From contig JBKAGP010000001.1 in NCBI GenBank assembly GCA_046290465.1, positions 2,400,001 through 2,464,000 of the forward strand: a DNA stretch of 64,000 nt, read 5' to 3'. Shown piece by piece: positions 40,701 to 49,700 of this stretch. How positions within the stretch are numbered: the first letter of the stretch is position 1; each line of letters starts with the position of its first letter. Position numbers: made by a program. Source of the stretch: Planctomycetota bacterium (GTDB lineage: Bacteria > Planctomycetota > UBA1135 > UBA2386).

Positions 40701-43700
40701 GACCGACGGTCGATCAGCGGCGCAGCGCCGACAGGGCTCGACCGAGCCCGTCGGCCATGCGCACCCCGTGCCAGCAGAAGTCCCGCCCGTCACACAGCAC
40801 GATCGGGACGTCTTCGAACACCCGCGCCGCGGCGAGCTCGTCGCGCTGCGCCTCGTCGAACGCCCACGGCTCGCTCGCGAGCAACACGCGTTCGACGCCG
40901 CGTGACAACGCGTCGCGCGGATCCATCGCCGGATAGCGATCGTGCGCATCGGCGGCGACGCTGTGCGCTCCGCACAGCTTGAGCACGTCGTGCACGAACG
41001 TGTCCGCGCCGATCGTCATCCACGGCTTGCGCCAGATCGCGTAGTAGACGCGCAGCGGCCGCCGATCCAACGCGTCGACCTCGGCCGCCGCGATCCGCGC
41101 CTCGATCCGCAGCAAGAACGGCTCGGCCGCGTCGAGCCGATCGAGACGCGTCGCCAGCACGCGCAGGTCGTTGGCCGCTTCGACCACCGAACGCGGCGTC
41201 TGCACCAGCGTCGGCACGCGCGCCGCCAGCTGCTCGAGGTCCTCGGCGCGGTTCTCCTCGGCGTTGCCGAGCACCAGGTCCGGCTCCAGCGCCAGGATCG
41301 CCGGCAGGTCCGGGTTCTTGGTGCCGCCGATGCGCGGCACGTGTGCGAGGTGGGCCGCCGGCTCGGTGCAGTACCGCGTGCAGCCGACCAGCCGGTCGGT
41401 CGCACCGAGTTCGCAGACCGACTCGGTGGTGCTGGGGACCAGGCTGACGATCCGCTGCGGCGCGCTCATCGCGGCCGCGGCCCGCCGCGGAACGCGCGCG
41501 GCACGAACCGCCACCAGCCGAGCCCGTACCAACGCTGCAGCGTGCGGCGGTCGATCGTGTGCGCGTGCAGCGGCATGCCGTCGCCGTCGGCGTGCTCGGT
41601 GCCGATCGGGCACGCCTTGCGCGAACCGCAGCCGGTCTCGCAGCCACCGTCGTCGCGATGGCTCGCGCAGCGCTCGCGGTCGGCGCGACCGAGGTCGACG
41701 TGCACCTTGGGCGGGCACGCCTCGACGCACGGACGGTCGCACGTGCAGCACGGCTTGAAGCGATCGGTGATCGACGCATCGTCGACCTGCCCGAACGGCC
41801 GCCCCTCGATCAGCAGCGCGGCGCGCACCCGCAGCCACGGACCGTAGGTCGGGTTGAGCAGCATGCCGGAGACCGGCGAGACGATGCCGAAGCCGGCCGC
41901 CTCGGCGAGCCTGCCGAAGTTCAGTCGCGGCCAGCGCGCGTCGACCTTGGTCCAGCGCAGGCCCGCCTGCTCGAGTTCGTCGGCGACCGCGTCGACCGAG
42001 CTGGCGACCAGCTCCTCGACCTCTTCGCAGGTCGGACGTTCGGACAGCCCGCGGCCCTGGCGCTGGAACTCCAGCCAGAACGACTGCCCCGCCGTGCCGA
42101 GCACGAGGATCGTGCCGCAGCCCGGCAGCACGGAGGTGCTGCGCTGTTCACAGGGCTGGCAGCCGTCGAACCGCTGCGCATCGACGAGACCGAACAGGTT
42201 CAGGCCGTTGCGCGCGGCCCGCTGTTGCAGGGGACCGAGCAGGGACATGGGAAACCGCACAAGGGCGAAGGCACCCGTGTTTTCGGACGAGAGCCCCGCC
42301 GGAGCAACCCCTTGCCCCGACCGGGGCGCGCCGGTACCGTGCGAAAGCTCCTCACGGGGAAGTCCGGTGTGAATCCGGCGCTGTCCCGCAGCTGTATCCG
42401 GGGACGAACGTCCATCAGCCACTGGCGACGCCGCGTCGGCAAGCCGGGAAGGCGGACCAGTAGGTCGATCCGGGAGCCAGAACATCCGCGTCGAGCCGGT
42501 CTCATCGAGGCCGCCATCGCCATTCCTTCGCGGCGCGCAAGACGCCCGGTTGGCTCATGACCCACGGACTCCGAGGCCGCGCTGCGTGCGCGTGCCGCTG
42601 GCTGCTGGTGCCCCGCGCGGGCACCGCGTGGGCGCATTCCTCCAGCGAAGGCAGGCACCCCCGGTCGCCCGCGCGACCTGCCGCGCCCATCCGGCGCGCT
42701 GCGTGATCGCATGCTTCGCTCCCCCATCCTGCTGCTGGCCGCCACCGCGGGCATCTGCCTTCCCGCCCAACAGGTCGCCGATGGCTACGCCCAGACCACC
42801 GCGACGCTGCCCGCCGGCGCCGGCAGCTTCCTCGAGACCACCTTCGGAACGGTCTACTTCGACGGCTTCGACCTGATGCTCGATCCGGGCACCGGCGGCA
42901 CGTCGCTGCTGACGTTCCCGTCGTTCACGTTCGGGTCGTTCTCGGCGCCGATCGGCGCCACCGAGGTGCTGTTCGGCGAGAGCAGCAACGGCGGCATCTG
43001 GACCGTGCCGCTCAACGGCCTGCCGGCGCAGCTGGTCGCCAACGTGCCGTTCAACTACGACGCCGTGCTGCTCGACGACGACCGTGCGCTGGTGTCGGCC
43101 AAGACCGGCGGCTTCTCGGCGCCGGACAACGACGTGATGTTCGTCGACCTGCTGACCGGCCAGACCCAGCTGCTCGCCCAGTTCCCCGGCGCATCGGGTC
43201 CGCTCGCGATCGACGCCAACGGCGACGTCTACTACGCGACCTCGCCGGCGGTCTTCCCGGCCCCCGCCGGCACCGTCGAGGTGCTGCGGCTGCCGCGCGC
43301 GGTCGTCGATCTCGCCATCAGCAACCAGACGGTGCTCGGCGTCGCCGACGCGACCGTGGTGATCGCGGGCCTCGACGCCGCTGGTGACCTGGCGTTCGAC
43401 GACGACGGCGACCTGTTCTTCGTCGACTGGTTCAACGGCACCATCGGCGAAGTCGACGGCGCCGACGGCGGCCAGGCGACGCTGGCGCCGACGCTGATCG
43501 ACTACGCCGGCACCGGCCTGAGCGGCAGCGTGCTGCAGTTCGCGCCGACCGCGGCGCCGGTGCCGCAGGTGTTCGAGCCGTTCCAGCCGGCCGGCGCCGC
43601 GCTGCTGGTCCACGAGACCGACTACGTCAGCATCAGCCAGGTCCGCAGCCTGGTCGCGGCCCCGCCGCAGCTGTCGGCCTCGGCCGCATCGCCGATCCCG

Positions 43701-46700: not shown

Positions 46701-49700
46701 TTCGGCCGGATGATGAACTTCGGCCGCAGCCAGTCGGACACGGTCGAGAAGGACGGCACGTTCGAGGTCAAGGACGTCACCGCCGGCCTCTACCGGCTGC
46801 GGGTCACCGCCGGCCGCCGCGGCGGCGTGCTCTACGAGGAGCAGGTGCAGGTGGTCGCCGACGTGACCCTGCAGCGCAACCTGTCGCTGACGACCGGCTC
46901 GGTGAAGGGCTCGATCACGACCGACGACGGCACCGACCCGAAGGCGATCGGTGGCCGCATCTCGCTGGTCCAGGGCCTGATCGAGATCCCCGAGGACCTC
47001 AACCGCTACCTGCGCGAGAACACGTCGTTCGACGCGCGGATCCGCGACGGCGCGTTCGAGATCGAGTCGATCCCGCCCGGCACCTACATGCTGATCTTCC
47101 AGGCGCGCAACCGCGAGCGGACCACGCAGACCGTCGTCGTCAGCGGCACCGAGAACATCACCGTGCCCGCAGGCAAGGCGACGCCCCAAAACGGCGGCGC
47201 GCCGAAGTAGGATGCACGGCTCCCCGACGGAGCCGACACCATCCGCACGCTCGTTTCGATCCTGATCTCCCTGCTGATCGCAGTCGCGCTCGGCACCGTG
47301 CTCTACGCGCTGGTGCTGGCGGTCGGCCGCGATCCGCTGCCCGGTGCCGAAGAGCGCTTCGTGGTCGCACCGCCGACGCAACTGCCTGCACCGACGCGGC
47401 TGGCGCCGATCCCCGGCATCGAGACGTCGCAGGTCCCCGACACCAACATCGGCGCCGTGGCGACGCGCGTGACGGTGCCGGTGCACATCTCCGACCTGCC
47501 GGAGTCGTTGCGCAACGGCACCGCCGGCGTCGCCACCTACCACACCGACACCGGCGGCGACTTCCGCTGGTATCCGCTCGACGAGGCCATCCCGGGGCAG
47601 CGCGGCGGGCTGCTGATCACCGCGCAGGCGCCGCAGGGGACCCGGCTGACCGTGACGTTCTCGGCGCGGCGCGAACACGCCCGGCGCGGCTACCTCGATC
47701 GCCACGAGTTCGAGGTCGACGCGACCGACACCGGGGCGACGCCGATCGTCGAACTCGACGGGGCGGTGCACGCCGTGCGCTTCGACCTGCCGACCGACGT
47801 CGACCAGGCCGGCCCGCTGCGGCTGCAGCGCGTCGACGACCGCCAGTGGCTGCCGATGCTGCACAGCACCGCCGGCCTCAAGCTGCGCAGCGGCACGGAG
47901 CTGACGCTGCAGCTCGGCAGCGGTGCCTACGAGCTGCAGGACCCGCTCGCGCCCGAACGCGCGCAGCGCTTCGAGGTGCCGGGCACGCCGGCGGTGACGG
48001 TCACTGCGGCGCTTCCACCGGCTCGAGACGGCCGTCTCTGACCCGGAACAGCTTGCCCGAGACCGGGTGCGGGGCGCGGTCGGCCAGGTCCTCGGTCGCC
48101 GACATCAGCGCTTCGATGTTCTGCCCCTCCTCGGGGCCGGCCCACAGCGTGTCGCGGTCGGGGACCGCCACCAGCAGGCCCTCCTGCTGGTCGAGCAACA
48201 GCACGCGCGAGGCGTCGAAGCCGTCGCCCGACTGCAGCAGCACCGACTCGGCACAGGCCTCGTCGATGCCGTTGCGCCCCAGGCGGGCGAGGTTGGCCAG
48301 CGCCAGGTTGTGCAGGTCCTCGGCCGTCTTCTGCCAGCGCTGCAGGTGCGCGCGGCACAGGAACACCATGCACGAAGCGTCGTCGACGACGTAGACCGTG
48401 ACCAGCTCGTCGTTGAGCGGCGTGTGCACGAGCCCCGAGTCGCCGAACGTGCCCTGCTCGTCGAGCCAGGCGCGGCTGCGCACCTGCGGCATCAGCAGCT
48501 GCGCGGCGGTCGCGAACTCGAGGTCGTCGCAGCGATCGAGGCCGACCTCGCGGATGTCCTCGACCAGCTGGGCGACCATGCGCGGGAACGCTTCGGGAAA
48601 CGCTTCGGCGTGGCGGAATGCCTCGTGCAGGCCAACCGGGGTCTCCTGGCCGTCGACGGACAGCAGGCAGGCGAAGCGGTCGGGCAGCATGCCGAGGAAG
48701 CGGACCCGCGGGTGCGCGGCGATCAGTTCGTTCTCCAGCTGGAGCACGAACGCGGCGACCTCGGGCGGATACCGCGAGGAGCGTTGCCGCAGCCGGTGGT
48801 GCACCACCACGCCCGCGAGCGCCAACATCGACCAGCCGAGACCGACCCACAGCCACATGCAGGCGCTATCGGCCGTTCGCGGCCGCGGCTTCAGGCCGGG
48901 CGCCCAATCGAGGCACACGCGCCGAGGCACACGCGCCGGGGCGGCGCCGTCGACGGTCTGGGGAGTGACTCCCCGGGGGGATGCCCACGCCAGGACGACT
49001 TGACGCTCCTTCCTCTGCTTGCAGAGGCTACGGACGAACTGACAAACCGACAAGTGCGAGGCACCGATTTCCGAACGCTCCCCACCACCTTGCACAAACC
49101 CTCCGGAAATCGGAGACTCTGCGCTGCCCCCACGGTGCAGAAGGTGACGACGACCACGCAAGAAGCCCACTTCCGGCTGCTGATCCTGGGGGACGGATCC
49201 GTCCGCACCATCCCGCTGACCGGCAGCCGGTGGACCATCGGCCGCTCGCTGGACTGCTCGATCACGCTGCGGGATCCGACCGTCAGCCGCCGCCACCTGG
49301 TGCTCGAGCGCGACGGCAACACGTTCCGCTTCCAGGACCTGGGCAGCGCCAACCCGCCGGTGCTCGACGGCCGCTCGACGCGCCAGGCGGTGCTGGCGCC
49401 GGGCCAGCAGCTGACCATCGGGCTGACGCGGCTGGTGCTCGAGGAGCGCCGCCGGCCGGCACCGATCGCCACCAACCAGGTCAGCACCGTCATCCTGTCG
49501 CGCGAGGTCATCGACGAAGAGCTGCCGCACGACGAGGACCCCGGCGCGTTCACGACGACCGCGTCCAAGGTGCTGCAGAGCATCGAGTGGACGTTCGCCG
49601 ACCTCGGCGATCTGGCCGACGCCGCCGAGCCGCTGCTCGAACTGGCGCTCAACCTGTCAGGCCGGCGCAGCGGCTGGCTGGCGCGGTTCCCGACGCCGAC

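What a model noticed while it worked through the whole genome (the two positions that open the first line are those of the whole stretch)
40714..48041. Cobalamin-riboswitch operon of family-less secreted proteins: candidate corrinoid-capture system of a B12 auxotroph
A cobalamin riboswitch (2442356-2442487) sits 220 nt before an operon of three proteins without functional annotation: g01867 (434 aa, secreted), g01868 (1025 aa, Ig-like/CarboxypepD_reg repeats) and g01869 (247 aa), next to a BtuF-like binding protein (g01865). g01867 models as a six-bladed beta-propeller with a C-terminal beta-sandwich, and its homologues in relatives are nearly always preceded by the same riboswitch, so I read the operon as a new extracytoplasmic corrinoid-scavenging machine, a functional analogue of the BtuG/BtuH surface proteins of Bacteroides. 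It would be the first B12-capture system described for Planctomycetota and a source of new high-affinity B12 binders.
Evidence so far: Riboswitch: Rfam RF00174, 77.7 bits (rna.tsv, call 3; call 138). g01867-g01869: no Pfam (except CarboxypepD_reg in g01868), Swiss-Prot or NCBIfam row. Homologues of g01867 in 18 of 31 genomes of the order (27-48% identity; call 137); in 14 of the 16 loci fetched a Cobalamin riboswitch (38-86 bits) lies on the gene's strand, 90-450 nt upstream in 13 loci and 1.1 kb upstream in one; the 2 loci without it are contig ends with 1.1 kb of upstream DNA. AlphaFold, 11-sequence alignment: pLDDT 90.4, pTM 0.87; Foldseek: >=500 PDB chains at E<=0.001, the listed ones beta-propellers (Pizza6 designer propeller TMt 0.70-0.72, SMP30/lactonase 2p4o, strictosidine synthase; call 146). 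The genome needs B12 ( [...]
(Added by a program. Inside this text positions count along the whole contig: contig position 2,400,001 is position 1 of the stretch shown here. "Call 12" and the like, gene names such as g00115 and contig names such as C1 are that model's own, and its searches are not shown. The text may have been shortened before it was handed on; [...] marks where a part breaks off. The agent that wrote the report below was given it as the finding of a first reader that could run no searches.)

Follow-up and report, generated by a model that had tools for sequence, protein, structure and literature searches.

The report
B12-riboswitch operon of secreted propeller
A vitamin B12-sensing RNA switch in a B12-dependent marine planctomycete controls a secreted propeller protein and two membrane-anchored partners of unknown family, and the same pairing recurs across the phylum, so this is a strong but unproven candidate for a new B12-scavenging system.

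Summary
A Cobalamin riboswitch (42356-42487, 77.7 bits) precedes g67 (secreted six-bladed propeller plus beta-sandwich), g68 (membrane-anchored, CarboxypepD_reg repeats with RGG linkers) and g69. In a 101-genome sample of the order, 61 of 64 genomes with a g67 relative have RF00174 within 3.2 kb upstream on the same strand. All 16 loci examined from other orders of the phylum have it too, down to 28% identity, while the other neighbours change. The genome has B12-dependent enzymes but no CbiC, CbiG, CbiB or CobS match.

Corrections:
- g65 is not a periplasmic BtuF. It has no signal peptide and its start overlaps (ATGA) the stop of g66, a Fe-S protein distantly related to QueG, CblC and RdhA.
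- g69 starts 57 nt earlier, at a conserved AUC/AUU codon, and has an N-terminal membrane helix.
- No TonB-dependent receptor or BtuCD gene lies beside any examined locus.
- g67 shows no detectable kinship to BtuG or BtuK.

The genome's only other riboswitch controls another family-less secreted protein, which shares an operon with g67 relatives in other genomes.

Best reading (about 0.6): a B12-repressed corrinoid-capture module in the cell envelope. Binding is untested. I found no paper on it.

The parts
40714..41469 (-). g65: a 251-aa TroA-like / BtuF-like protein with no signal peptide, so probably a cytoplasmic corrinoid-binding protein.
   Evidence: It matches NF038402 TroA_like at 172 bits and Peripla_BP_2 at E 2.4e-22. 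It scores 64.6 bits on the BtuF equivalog, below the 234-bit cut-off. Its ATG overlaps g66's TGA as ATGA. In relatives it starts 0-24 nt after g66, which leaves no room for a signal peptide. No TM-like segment was found.
41466..42248 (-). g66: a 260-aa cytoplasmic Cys-rich (Fe-S type) protein, a distant member of the QueG / RdhA / CblC cobalamin-binding superfamily. It is transcribed divergently from the riboswitch operon.
   Evidence: The family profile A6 against PDB sequences matches QueG 5d08 at E 7.4e-5 (residues 78-201 against 132-246), MMACHC/CblC at E about 0.02 and NpRdhA 4ras at E 0.05. Eight invariant or nearly invariant Cys are present. It scores 18 bits on TIGR00276, far below the 200-bit cut-off. 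A canonical QueG lies elsewhere in the genome at 290.6 bits. g66 is present next to g67 relatives in most of the 50 loci.
42356..42487 (+). Cobalamin riboswitch aptamer.
   Evidence: RF00174 at 77.7 bits, E 2e-17, model positions 45-169. It scores 148 bits with model R1, which was built from relatives.
42488..42559 (+). Expression platform: two conserved hairpins (the second is GGCGCG..GACGCC) followed by an ATG at 42557, 70 nt after the aptamer.
   Evidence: The alignment of 10 loci shows conservation and compensatory changes beyond the aptamer. In many relatives the start codon at +65 to +70 is the g67 homologue's own start and is preceded by GAGG-type Shine-Dalgarno sequence. No intrinsic terminator was found. 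Control at the level of translation is inferred.
42557..42706 (+). A 49-codon upstream reading frame that begins at the platform ATG and ends at a TGA 4 nt before the g67 ATG. Translational coupling is inferred.
   Evidence: The same 4-nt gap occurs in L033 and, by eye, in the aligned L004 and L007 junction. In L009 the two frames overlap. The peptide sequence is not conserved.
42711..44015 (+). g67: a 434-aa exported protein with a signal peptide (1-19, conserved AQQ), a six-bladed beta-propeller (about 20-318) and a C-terminal beta-sandwich (320-434). It is the core riboswitch target and the candidate corrinoid binder.
   Evidence: AlphaFold2 pLDDT 91.9, with residues 1-19 below 50. Matches to six-bladed NHL/SGL/sGDH/YWTD propellers at Z 20-23. 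No Pfam family in 29 of 31 members, the other two being single chance-level hits. 201 related proteins, all named hypothetical and from Planctomycetota. Riboswitch association.
44133..47210 (+). g68: a 1025-aa bitopic membrane protein with an N-terminal TM helix (1-28), repeated CarboxypepD_reg (transthyretin-like) domains and five Arg/Gly-rich (RGG, GGDRGG) linkers.
   Evidence: Pfam CarboxypepD_reg at E 6.4e-51 in 5 stretches. TM segment and linkers. Homologues lie directly after g67 in 37 of the 50 loci. CarboxypepD_reg giants also lie near distant g67 relatives in L055, L095 and L096.
47241..48041 (+). g69, re-annotated: 266 aa, starting at a conserved ATC. It has an N-terminal TM helix, a disordered linker with a PxRL motif and two Ig-like beta-sandwich domains.
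   Evidence: An ATC or ATT codon opens the conserved helix in 22 of 22 loci. 20 of 22 have GGAG or GAGG about 8-14 nt upstream. 16 of 22 have no ATG, GTG or TTG between the preceding in-frame stop and the helix. AlphaFold2 pLDDT 85.2, with a helix at 2-29. Only generic Ig-like or CBM-like fold matches, best Z 8.5.

Best explanation
This is a B12-starvation module of the cell envelope.

Regulation. When intracellular (adenosyl)cobalamin is high, the riboswitch folds so that the start region about 70 nt downstream is hidden. In this genus that start opens a short leader frame whose translation is coupled to g67. When B12 is scarce the operon is translated.

The proteins. g67 is exported. Its six-bladed propeller most likely binds corrinoids on the loop-rich face, as the unrelated seven-bladed BtuG and BtuK do in Bacteroides. 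g68 and g69 are both anchored in the inner membrane by one N-terminal helix and carry transthyretin/Ig-like domains. They most likely form a scaffold or relay that holds g67, or passes on its cargo, in the periplasm or at the surface.

Onward path. Uptake across the membranes would use transporters encoded elsewhere. The genome has 4 TonB-dependent receptors and one FecCD/Peripla_BP_2 set, none under a riboswitch. The divergent pair g66-g65 most likely receives or processes the cofactor in the cytoplasm (a CblC/QueG-like Fe-S protein plus a BtuF-like carrier).

Shown: the riboswitch, the gene structures, the export signals, the folds, the conservation of the pairing, and the lack of B12 synthesis genes. 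Inferred: corrinoid binding by g67, the roles of g68, g69, g66 and g65, and the coupling through the leader frame.
For: 1. The riboswitch is real and has a conserved platform.
2. The riboswitch-g67 pairing survives where everything else changes:
   - 61 of 64 genomes of the order sample.
   - 18 of 20 loci at 27-36% identity with unrelated neighbours.
   - 16 of 16 loci from other orders.
3. In genomes that carry g67, 62 of 100 RF00174 matches sit in front of g67-family genes. 78 of 100 sit in front of either g67-family genes or the second secreted family.
4. The genome's only other riboswitch controls a second family-less secreted protein. In L087 that protein lies in one riboswitch operon with a g67 relative, and it is adjacent to g67 relatives in L069, L040, L042 and in G020, G002 and G012.
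5. B12 is needed but not made:
   - 8 PF02310 ORFs, a QueG and a PduO adenosyltransferase are present.
   - There is no match to CbiC, CbiG_C, CobD/CbiB or CobS.
   - CbiC was found in 0 of 101 genomes of the order.
6. g67 has a signal peptide and a high-confidence propeller. Propellers that bind B12 with pM-nM affinity are known (BtuG and BtuK; PMC13616437 sections 3.4 and 6).
7. Other genes with B12 links recur nearby. g66 (QueG/CblC/RdhA-like) and g65 (TroA/BtuF-like) are beside g67 in most loci. In L091 a Peripla_BP_2 gene follows the g67 relative behind the riboswitch.
8. Some distant g67 relatives carry a C-terminal dockerin, which fits a surface-displayed binder.
Against: - There are no binding or expression data. 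The only RNA-library signal is a few short contigs from one metatranscriptome, which may be DNA carry-over.
- None of the loci whose neighbours I scanned (38 distinct loci from other families and orders) places g67 beside a TonB-dependent receptor or a BtuCD-type importer. TonB-dependent receptors exist in 97 of 101 genomes but lie elsewhere.
- The six-bladed NHL/SGL fold is as typical of enzymes (lactonases, strictosidine synthase, sugar dehydrogenases) as of binders.
- Neither BtuG nor BtuK appeared in the fold lists or in the profile search of PDB sequences.
- One family of the order (f9, 0 of 25 genomes with g67) also lacks CbiC, and 15 of its 25 genomes have riboswitch matches. g67 is therefore not the only solution in the order.
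- Related genomes are not independent samples.
Confidence: 0.6

Rival explanations
1. g67 is an extracytoplasmic enzyme that serves B12 acquisition catalytically rather than by capture. It might free corrinoids from foreign carrier proteins or conjugates, or remodel unusable analogues, with g68 and g69 as scaffold.
For: The best fold matches are enzymes of the SMP30/gluconolactonase, strictosidine synthase, PQQ sugar dehydrogenase and paraoxonase type at Z 20-23. Strongly conserved Asp, Asn, Ser and Tyr motifs (N115-Y-D, GASGP 160-164, D222-D226, FEPFQP 288-293) could form an active site. This reading explains the riboswitch control equally well.
Against: No Pfam enzyme family (SGL, Str_synth, NHL) is matched by sequence in 29 of 31 members; one member has a chance-level SSL_N hit at E 0.0086. 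No substrate can be named. The known extracytoplasmic members of B12 regulons are binders and transporters (PMC13616437, sections read).
Confidence: 0.15
2. The operon is a B12-starvation surface programme that does not touch corrinoids directly. It might serve adhesion to, or interaction with, B12-producing neighbours or algal hosts, through the giant repeat protein g68 and the propeller as a lectin or adhesin.
For: g68 and g69 are built of Ig/transthyretin-like domains typical of adhesins and S-layer proteins. Propellers of this class include lectins and receptor domains. DNA close to this stretch occurs in runs labelled algae, coral, aquaculture and marine metagenomes (only X2, X4, X7 and X20 were laid). 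Some relatives carry dockerins.
Against: In many lineages g67 stands alone behind the riboswitch, without g68 or g69. It co-occurs with proteins linked to B12 chemistry (g65, g66). Both g68 and g69 appear anchored by an N-terminal helix, most simply in the inner membrane, which is a poor place for an adhesin.
Confidence: 0.1
3. The operon is a B12-independent substitute for some B12-dependent function (like metE or nrdAB in other regulons), or a cobalt or metal uptake system.
For: Cobalamin riboswitches often repress B12-independent isozymes and cobalt transporters (general knowledge of B12 regulons, recalled). g68 has a sub-threshold match to DUF4198, at 31.9 bits against a 34-bit cut-off; that this family is associated with metal uptake is recalled.
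Against: All three proteins are exported or membrane-anchored with extracytoplasmic bulk, whereas known B12-dependent enzymes are cytoplasmic. Cobalt would be of little use without corrin synthesis: CbiC was found in 0 of 101 genomes, and the genome has no CbiG_C, CbiB or CobS match. None of the three proteins has more than one TM helix, so none can form a channel.
Confidence: 0.05

Closest known systems
BtuG (Bacteroides thetaiotaomicron surface lipoprotein, e.g. BtuG2, PDB 8BMZ as cited in PMC13616437)
   Same: Both are exported beta-propellers encoded behind a cobalamin riboswitch in a B12 auxotroph. For BtuG, B12 binds on one loop-rich face of the propeller. Both have paralogues, often in tandem.
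   Different: BtuG has seven blades, a lipoprotein anchor, a stable complex with the adjacent TonB-dependent BtuB, and measured fM-pM affinity. g67 has six blades plus a C-terminal beta-sandwich and a type-I style signal peptide without a conserved Cys. It has no sequence match and no BtuB neighbour in any scanned locus. Its binding is untested.
BtuK1/BtuK2 (Bacteroides; PKD domain plus seven-bladed propeller; PDB 9S6C and 4R5O as cited in PMC13616437)
   Same: Both pair a propeller with an Ig-like domain. Both occur as tandem paralogues in a riboswitch-controlled B12 locus. For BtuK a hand-off role rather than sequestration has been proposed.
   Different: The domain order is reversed and the blade number differs. 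There is no detectable homology. BtuK is a lipoprotein.
The Bacteroides multiprotein Btu relay (BtuJ/DUF4465, BtuH, BtuG-BtuB, BtuFCD)
   Same: Both use several non-homologous extracytoplasmic proteins under riboswitch control in an auxotroph. Here these are g67, the second secreted family (L002:1727-2761) and perhaps g68 and g69. The second family sometimes shares an operon with g67 relatives, which recalls the BtuG-BtuH pairing and fusion.
   Different: No component is a detectable member of DUF4465, BtuH or BtuG by sequence. The transporter genes are not in the locus. The phylum and envelope differ.
Six-bladed NHL / SMP30-gluconolactonase / sGDH / YWTD propellers
   Same: The fold matches at Z 20-23, rmsd 2.6-3.4 A over 225-276 residues. 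The ESM Atlas neighbours are NHL and SGL clusters.
   Different: There is no sequence-model match. None of those families is known to me as a riboswitch target (recalled).
CblC/MMACHC, QueG and reductive dehalogenases (cobalamin-binding nitroreductase-like superfamily), for g66; BtuF/TroA class-III binding proteins, for g65
   Same: The g66 profile hits all three groups over the same region, and g66 carries ferredoxin-type Cys motifs like QueG and RdhA. g65 has the TroA/BtuF fold family.
   Different: g66 is much shorter than QueG and scores far below its cut-off, and a true QueG exists elsewhere in the genome. g65 lacks a signal peptide and a partner permease.

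Membership tests
Cobalamin riboswitch (Rfam RF00174) | Covariance-model score above the curated gathering score | tested here: met
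   77.7 bits against 31.5, E 2e-17.
Cobalamin riboswitch (Rfam RF00174) | An expression platform that links the aptamer to a downstream start or terminator | tested here: met
   Conserved hairpins, GAGG-type Shine-Dalgarno sequence and a start codon at +65 to +70 in relatives. No terminator was found. The mode of action is inferred.
Cobalamin riboswitch (Rfam RF00174) | Binds a cobalamin and represses expression | not testable with these tools
   Needs in-line probing or reporter assays.
BtuG | Seven-bladed beta-propeller | tested here: not met
   24 strands arranged as six four-stranded blades before residue 323. The best fold matches are six-bladed families.
BtuG | Detectable sequence or structure kinship to BtuG | tested here: inconclusive
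   No PDB sequence match at E up to 1 except designer Pizza propellers and two chance-level hits. No Pfam family in 29 of 31 members. BtuG was not among the listed fold matches, but an unlisted family is not excluded.
BtuG | Lipoprotein signal (lipobox Cys) | tested here: not met
   Cys16 is not conserved. The conserved feature is A-Q-Q after the hydrophobic core.
BtuG | Encoded beside, and complexed with, a BtuB TonB-dependent transporter | tested here: not met
   No TonB_dep_Rec gene was found among the scanned neighbours. The genome's 4 TonB-dependent receptors lie 1.2 Mb or more away.
BtuG | High-affinity corrinoid binding | not testable with these tools
   No cobalamin ligand is available in the folding tools. 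A binding assay is needed.
NHL/SGL-type six-bladed propeller superfamily | Six-bladed fold with four-stranded blades | tested here: met
   Z 20-23 to PknD, TRIM-NHL, SMP30, sGDH and lactonases. Atlas structural neighbours are NHL and SGL clusters.
NHL/SGL-type six-bladed propeller superfamily | Match to the Pfam sequence models (NHL, SGL, Str_synth) | tested here: not met
   No such family matched at E up to 0.01 in the 31 members, apart from one SSL_N hit at E 0.0086.
BtuF (periplasmic B12-binding protein), for g65 | Peripla_BP_2 / TroA-like fold family | tested here: met
   PF01497 at E 2.4e-22 and NF038402 at 172 bits.
BtuF (periplasmic B12-binding protein), for g65 | Export signal, a partner BtuCD, and the equivalog score | tested here: not met
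   There is no signal peptide; the start overlaps the g66 stop. The only FecCD gene is at 4.11 Mb and has its own binding protein. g65 scores 64.6 bits against the 234-bit cut-off.
QueG (epoxyqueuosine reductase), for g66 | Equivalog score and full length | tested here: not met
   18 bits against the 200-bit cut-off, and 260 aa against a 337-position model. A true QueG lies at 5.80 Mb with 290.6 bits.
QueG/RdhA/CblC cobalamin-binding superfamily, for g66 | Profile similarity over the cobalamin-binding core plus Fe-S Cys motifs | tested here: inconclusive
   QueG at E 7.4e-5, CblC at about 0.02 and NpRdhA at 0.05. Eight conserved Cys. No structure was predicted.
CarboxypepD_reg repeat proteins, for g68 | Pfam PF13620 above the cut-off, repeated | tested here: met
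   171 bits against 32.3, in 5 stretches.

The most novel reading that the evidence does not exclude
Planctomycetota have their own phylum-wide B12 acquisition route that is not built around a riboswitch-controlled TonB-dependent receptor. A secreted six-bladed propeller (g67), often with a second secreted binder family (L002:1727-2761), captures corrinoids. In this lineage it hands them along an inner-membrane-anchored scaffold of transthyretin repeats with RGG linkers (g68 and g69, the latter kept scarce by an AUC/AUU start codon). A cytoplasmic pair then receives them: a CblC/QueG-like Fe-S processing enzyme (g66) and a BtuF-like carrier (g65).
Probability: 0.25. Interest if true: 0.85.

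Novelty: new variant of a known kind. Interest (0 to 1): 0.72.

Why it matters
B12 is made by few microbes and needed by most, and competition for it shapes marine and algal-associated communities. The only extracytoplasmic B12-capture proteins studied in depth are those of gut Bacteroidota.

A separate, unannotated family that is the main riboswitch target in a whole order of B12-auxotrophic Planctomycetota, and is also present in other orders, would give three things:
- a second, independently evolved capture solution;
- new high-affinity B12-binding scaffolds;
- a genomic marker for B12 scavenging in metagenomes.

The cytoplasmic g66-g65 pair could reveal a bacterial counterpart of the CblC processing step. 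The conserved AUC/AUU start of g69 is a clean natural case of non-canonical initiation.

Tried and rejected
- Complex prediction of g67 (20-434) with the g69 ectodomain (70-266) scored 0.00 and gave no verdict. It says nothing either way.
- Stop-codon readthrough joining g68 to g69. In the window the TAG of g68 is in frame with g69, but the frames differ in 13 of the 21 related loci, so I rejected this in favour of an AUC/AUU start.
- g66 as the organism's QueG. Rejected, because a canonical QueG exists elsewhere.
- g65 as the periplasmic partner of an importer. Rejected.
- Intrinsic terminator or sigma-70 promoter scan of 42200-48300 found nothing. Folding 42470-42730 alone was no more stable than shuffles, z -0.69.
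- The profile of the second secreted family (A5) against PDB sequences gave no match even at E 10, and Pfam gave none. So I could not confirm the BtuH-like reading of earlier notes.
- BtuG and BtuK were not listed in the Foldseek or VIA-align outputs for g67. An absence from a list is not evidence of a different origin.
- The g69 fold search gave only generic Ig-like or CBM-like matches, best Z 8.5.
- RNA evidence. One metatranscriptome (X20) has six contigs of 182-249 nt inside g68 and g69, among them 47256-47441, which crosses the old GTG start. DNA carry-over cannot be excluded, and contigs give no level or strand. Parts without cover mean nothing.
- My GC-based gene caller mis-called some frames, for example a 1770-aa antisense ORF over g67-g68 and the strand of the g67 relative in L055. 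Gene calls in relatives rest on tblastn and Pfam instead.
- Three out-of-order matches (G320 at a contig end, G187, G247) were not fetched.

Full report
**1. What is in the window**

cmscan finds one RNA family in the 64 kb window: a Cobalamin riboswitch aptamer at 42356-42487 (+), at 77.7 bits against a gathering score of 31.5, E 2e-17. The whole 6.59 Mb single-contig genome (70% G+C) has only two such matches, this one and one at contig position 775531-775707.

Downstream on the + strand lie three genes:
- g67, 42711-44015, 434 aa;
- g68, 44133-47210, 1025 aa from the ATG;
- g69, which ends at 48041.

Upstream and divergent lie g66 (41466-42248, -) and g65 (40714-41469, -). g67 and g69 have no Pfam or NCBIfam match. 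g68 matches CarboxypepD_reg (E 6.4e-51, five stretches). g65 matches Peripla_BP_2 and TroA_like.

**2. Anatomy of the proteins**

*g67.* AlphaFold2 on a 31-sequence alignment gives pLDDT 91.9 and pTM 0.88. Residues 1-19 are below 50, which fits a cleaved signal peptide. There are 24 strands before residue 323, followed by a C-terminal beta-sandwich. I read the 24 strands as six four-stranded blades.
- An exhaustive structural comparison gives Z 20-23 to six-bladed propellers: PQQ sugar dehydrogenases, SMP30/lactonases, PknD and TRIM NHL domains, and LDL-receptor YWTD domains. Foldseek and the ESM Atlas agree.
- BtuG and BtuK do not appear in these lists.
- A profile of the family hits only designer 'Pizza' propellers, plus two chance-level matches, among PDB sequences.
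- 29 of 31 family members match no Pfam family at E up to 0.01. The other two have single chance-level hits.
- The conserved N-terminus is a hydrophobic core ending in A-Q-Q. The single Cys is not conserved, so g67 is not a lipoprotein.
- The longest conserved motifs that are not part of the blade repeat are N115-Y-D, GASGP 160-164, D222-D226, F182-P-x-P and FEPFQP 288-293. By the strand order of the model they fall in the D-to-A and B-to-C loops. In propellers these loops form one face. This is an inference from topology, since I could not read the model's coordinates.

*g68.* It has one N-terminal TM segment (1-28), no Cys, 14% Gly and 10% Arg, and five RGG/GGDRGG linkers between its transthyretin-like domains.

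*g69.* It is mis-started in the annotation.
- In the window and in 21 related loci, a conserved hydrophobic helix (I-R-T-L-x-x-I-L-I-S-L-L...) is encoded upstream of the first ATG, GTG or TTG.
- In 22 of 22 loci the helix opens with ATC or ATT.
- 20 of 22 loci have GGAG or GAGG about 8-14 nt upstream of that codon.
- In 16 of 22 loci no canonical start lies between the preceding in-frame stop and the helix.
- In the window the g68 TAG is in frame with g69, but the frames differ in 13 of the 21 related loci, so readthrough is unlikely.
- g69 is therefore 47241-48041, 266 aa. It consists of a TM helix (2-29, pLDDT above 90), a disordered linker and two Ig-like domains with only generic fold matches, best Z 8.5.

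*g65 and g66.*
- The ATG of g65 overlaps the TGA of g66 as ATGA. In relatives g65 starts 0-24 nt after g66. It has no signal peptide and is best read as cytoplasmic.
- A profile of the g66 family matches QueG (E 7.4e-5), CblC/MMACHC (about 0.02) and the reductive dehalogenase NpRdhA (0.05) over the same core. It has eight conserved Cys.
- A canonical QueG lies elsewhere in the genome at 290.6 bits, so g66 is a separate family.

**3. The riboswitch has a working-looking platform**

Beyond the aptamer, ten aligned loci share two hairpins with compensatory changes, the second being GGCGCG..GACGCC, followed by a start codon. In many relatives the start at +65 to +70 is the g67 homologue's own start and is preceded by GAGG-type sequence. 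Examples are L016, L017, L022, L023, L030, L031, L034, L038 and L051.

In the window the ATG at 42557 (+70) instead opens a 49-codon frame that ends 4 nt before the g67 ATG. L033 has the same 4-nt gap, and in L009 the two frames overlap. By eye, the aligned L004 and L007 junction shows the 4-nt gap too. I infer translational control with coupling through the leader frame. No terminator was found.

**4. How conserved is the pairing?**

- g67 has 201 detectable relatives. Those with a name are 'hypothetical' and come from Planctomycetota.
- Among 50 loci from species genomes (39-78% identity), 43 have a strong match to my covariance model upstream on the gene's strand. Four more reach Rfam's gathering score: L049 and L042, L043 and L052. 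L003 has a match cut off by the contig end, L040 has a weak one (23 bits), and L027 has none with only 712 nt of upstream DNA.
- In about a dozen of these loci the switch lies 1.4-1.7 kb upstream because a paralogue of g67 sits in between.
- An unbiased whole-genome cross-tabulation in a 101-genome sample of the order gives the following:
  - 65 genomes have a match. I dropped one (G019), which has only a weak C-terminal match.
  - 61 of the remaining 64 have RF00174 within 3.2 kb upstream on the same strand and contig.
  - The exceptions are G072 and G012, with genes on short contigs, and G051.
- Twenty loci from the more distant families of the order (27-36% identity) have the switch in 18 cases. 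L057 and L066 do not. Their other neighbours are unrelated to one another.
- In a 301-genome sample of the phylum, 28 genomes have the family, 17 of them outside the order. All 16 distinct out-of-order loci that I fetched have the switch upstream, at 64-120 bits. Three further matches were not fetched.
- These sets overlap in genomes, and related genomes are not independent. Even so, the pairing persists at 28% identity, at G+C from 47 to 71%, and with changed neighbourhoods, which argues for selection.

**5. What else belongs to the system?**

- g68 follows g67 in 37 of the 50 loci and g69 in 21. g66 lies beside g67 in most loci and g65 in about half. g67 stands alone behind the switch in L016, L017, L022, L023, L030, L039 and L044.
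- CarboxypepD_reg giants recur near distant relatives in L055, L095 and L096. In L091 a Peripla_BP_2 gene follows the g67 relative. Relatives in two other families carry a C-terminal dockerin.
- The genome's second riboswitch precedes a 344-aa secreted protein with no family match.
  - That family is in 22 of the 101 genomes of the order sample. 18 of these have the switch directly upstream, and two of the rest are at contig starts.
  - It shares a switch-controlled operon with a g67 relative in L087 and in G020, and it lies next to g67 relatives in L069, L040, L042, G002 and G012.
  - The Atlas places its N-terminal domain near domains of Bacteroidota secreted proteins whose clusters also carry DUF4430 or DUF4465, two B12-binding domain families. 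This is a lead only.
  - Earlier notes of this scan call relatives of it BtuH-like. My sequence profile found no PDB match, so I could not confirm that.
- In g67-bearing genomes, 78 of 100 riboswitch matches precede one of these two families.

**6. B12 economy of the organism**

| Feature | Result |
|---|---|
| ORFs with a B12-binding domain (PF02310) | 8 |
| Canonical QueG | present, 290.6 bits |
| PduO-type adenosyltransferase | present, 184.8 bits |
| CbiC | none; 0 of 101 genomes in the order |
| CbiG_C | none |
| CobD/CbiB | none |
| CobS | none |
| TonB-dependent receptors | 4 |
| FecCD permease | 1, with its own Peripla_BP_2 neighbour |

The genome is estimated to be 94% complete. The cell therefore needs a complete cobamide from outside. 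None of the transporter genes lies near a riboswitch. TonB-dependent receptors occur in 97 of the 101 genomes of the order sample.

**7. Interpretation**

A riboswitch target that is exported, that is the main target of the switch in a clade that cannot make B12, and that keeps company with BtuF-like and CblC/QueG-like proteins is most simply a corrinoid acquisition protein. Two unrelated propeller families, BtuG and BtuK, bind B12 at pM-nM affinity in Bacteroides (PMC13616437; abstract and sections 3.4, 4, 5 and 6 read). This makes direct binding by g67 plausible.

It is not a BtuG. The blade number, the anchor, the neighbourhood and the sequence all differ. An enzymatic role in B12 acquisition, or a starvation-induced surface programme, cannot be excluded. 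The lack of any linked transporter leaves the onward path open.

**8. Novelty**

Full-text searches found only the Bacteroides work and nothing on this family or on B12 capture in Planctomycetota. The term sets were:
- BtuG, beta-propeller, cobalamin;
- cobalamin riboswitch, Planctomycetes, hypothetical protein;
- Planctomycetota, vitamin B12, auxotroph, riboswitch;
- cobalamin riboswitch, beta-propeller, secreted;
- cobalamin, riboswitch, Planctomycetes.

For the listed papers outside the Btu field I saw only titles and abstract starts. For PMC13398666 I saw the outline and abstract.

Earlier AI notes of this scan reached the same reading for relatives in other genomes. They are leads, not independent evidence.

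I rate this a new variant of a known kind, namely riboswitch-controlled extracytoplasmic B12-capture proteins. It is well supported as a regulon member and untested as a binder.

Noticed in passing
L002:1501-2761 (genome contig position 775531-776791), outside the window: The genome's only other cobalamin riboswitch (74.3 bits) controls a 344-aa secreted protein with no Pfam or PDB sequence match. Its family is in 22 of 101 genomes of the order sample, and 18 of those have the switch directly upstream. In other genomes it shares operons with g67 relatives. The Atlas puts its N-terminal domain near domains of Bacteroidota proteins whose clusters also carry DUF4430 or DUF4465.
   Followed up: partly
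window 47211-47300: g69 appears to start at a conserved AUC/AUU codon with a GGAG-type Shine-Dalgarno sequence. 22 of 22 loci have ATC or ATT, 20 of 22 have GGAG or GAGG, and 16 of 22 have no canonical start upstream of the conserved membrane helix. This is a rare, conserved non-canonical initiation that would keep g69 at low abundance.
   Followed up: yes
window 42557-42711: A 49-codon leader frame starts at the riboswitch-gated ATG and stops 4 nt before the g67 ATG. In many relatives the gated start is g67's own, so this genus seems to have inserted a coupled leader.
   Followed up: partly
window 40714-42248 (-): g66 (a QueG/CblC/RdhA-like Fe-S protein) and g65 (a BtuF-like protein without a signal peptide) overlap by ATGA and recur beside the propeller gene. 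They are a candidate cytoplasmic corrinoid processing and carrier pair, distinct from the genome's true QueG.
   Followed up: partly
window 44133-47210: g68 carries five Arg/Gly-rich linkers (for example GGDRGGRGGDRGDRGG) between its transthyretin-like domains. This composition seems unusual for an extracytoplasmic bacterial protein. Whether relatives keep these linkers was not checked.
   Followed up: no
L093:6764-8302, L096:6767-8074: Distant g67 relatives in two other families of the phylum end in a type I dockerin domain instead of the beta-sandwich. This suggests display on a cohesin-bearing surface scaffold.
   Followed up: no
G041:C53:19018-19393 (order sample): Two cobalamin riboswitches lie back to back on opposite strands, 43 nt apart. 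One faces g67 paralogues and the other faces the second secreted family.
   Followed up: no
L002:2761-3177: The gene after the second riboswitch's secreted protein encodes a Diphthami_syn_2-type (Dph6-like) ATP pyrophosphatase domain. Whether it belongs to the same transcript is unknown.
   Followed up: no
window 48067-52886: Downstream of g69 lie an FHA / sigma-54 activator / Fis-HTH regulator ORF and a large transglutaminase-core ORF. No link to the operon was examined.
   Followed up: no
window 42300-48100: Near-identical DNA is held by runs labelled algae, marine, aquaculture and coral metagenomes and by several coded organism cultures. One seawater metatranscriptome has short contigs inside g68 and g69.
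   Followed up: partly
order sample, family f9: One family of the order (small genomes of 1.8-5.7 Mb) has no g67 relative in 25 genomes and no CbiC, yet 15 of the 25 have riboswitch matches. What those riboswitches control was not examined.
   Followed up: no
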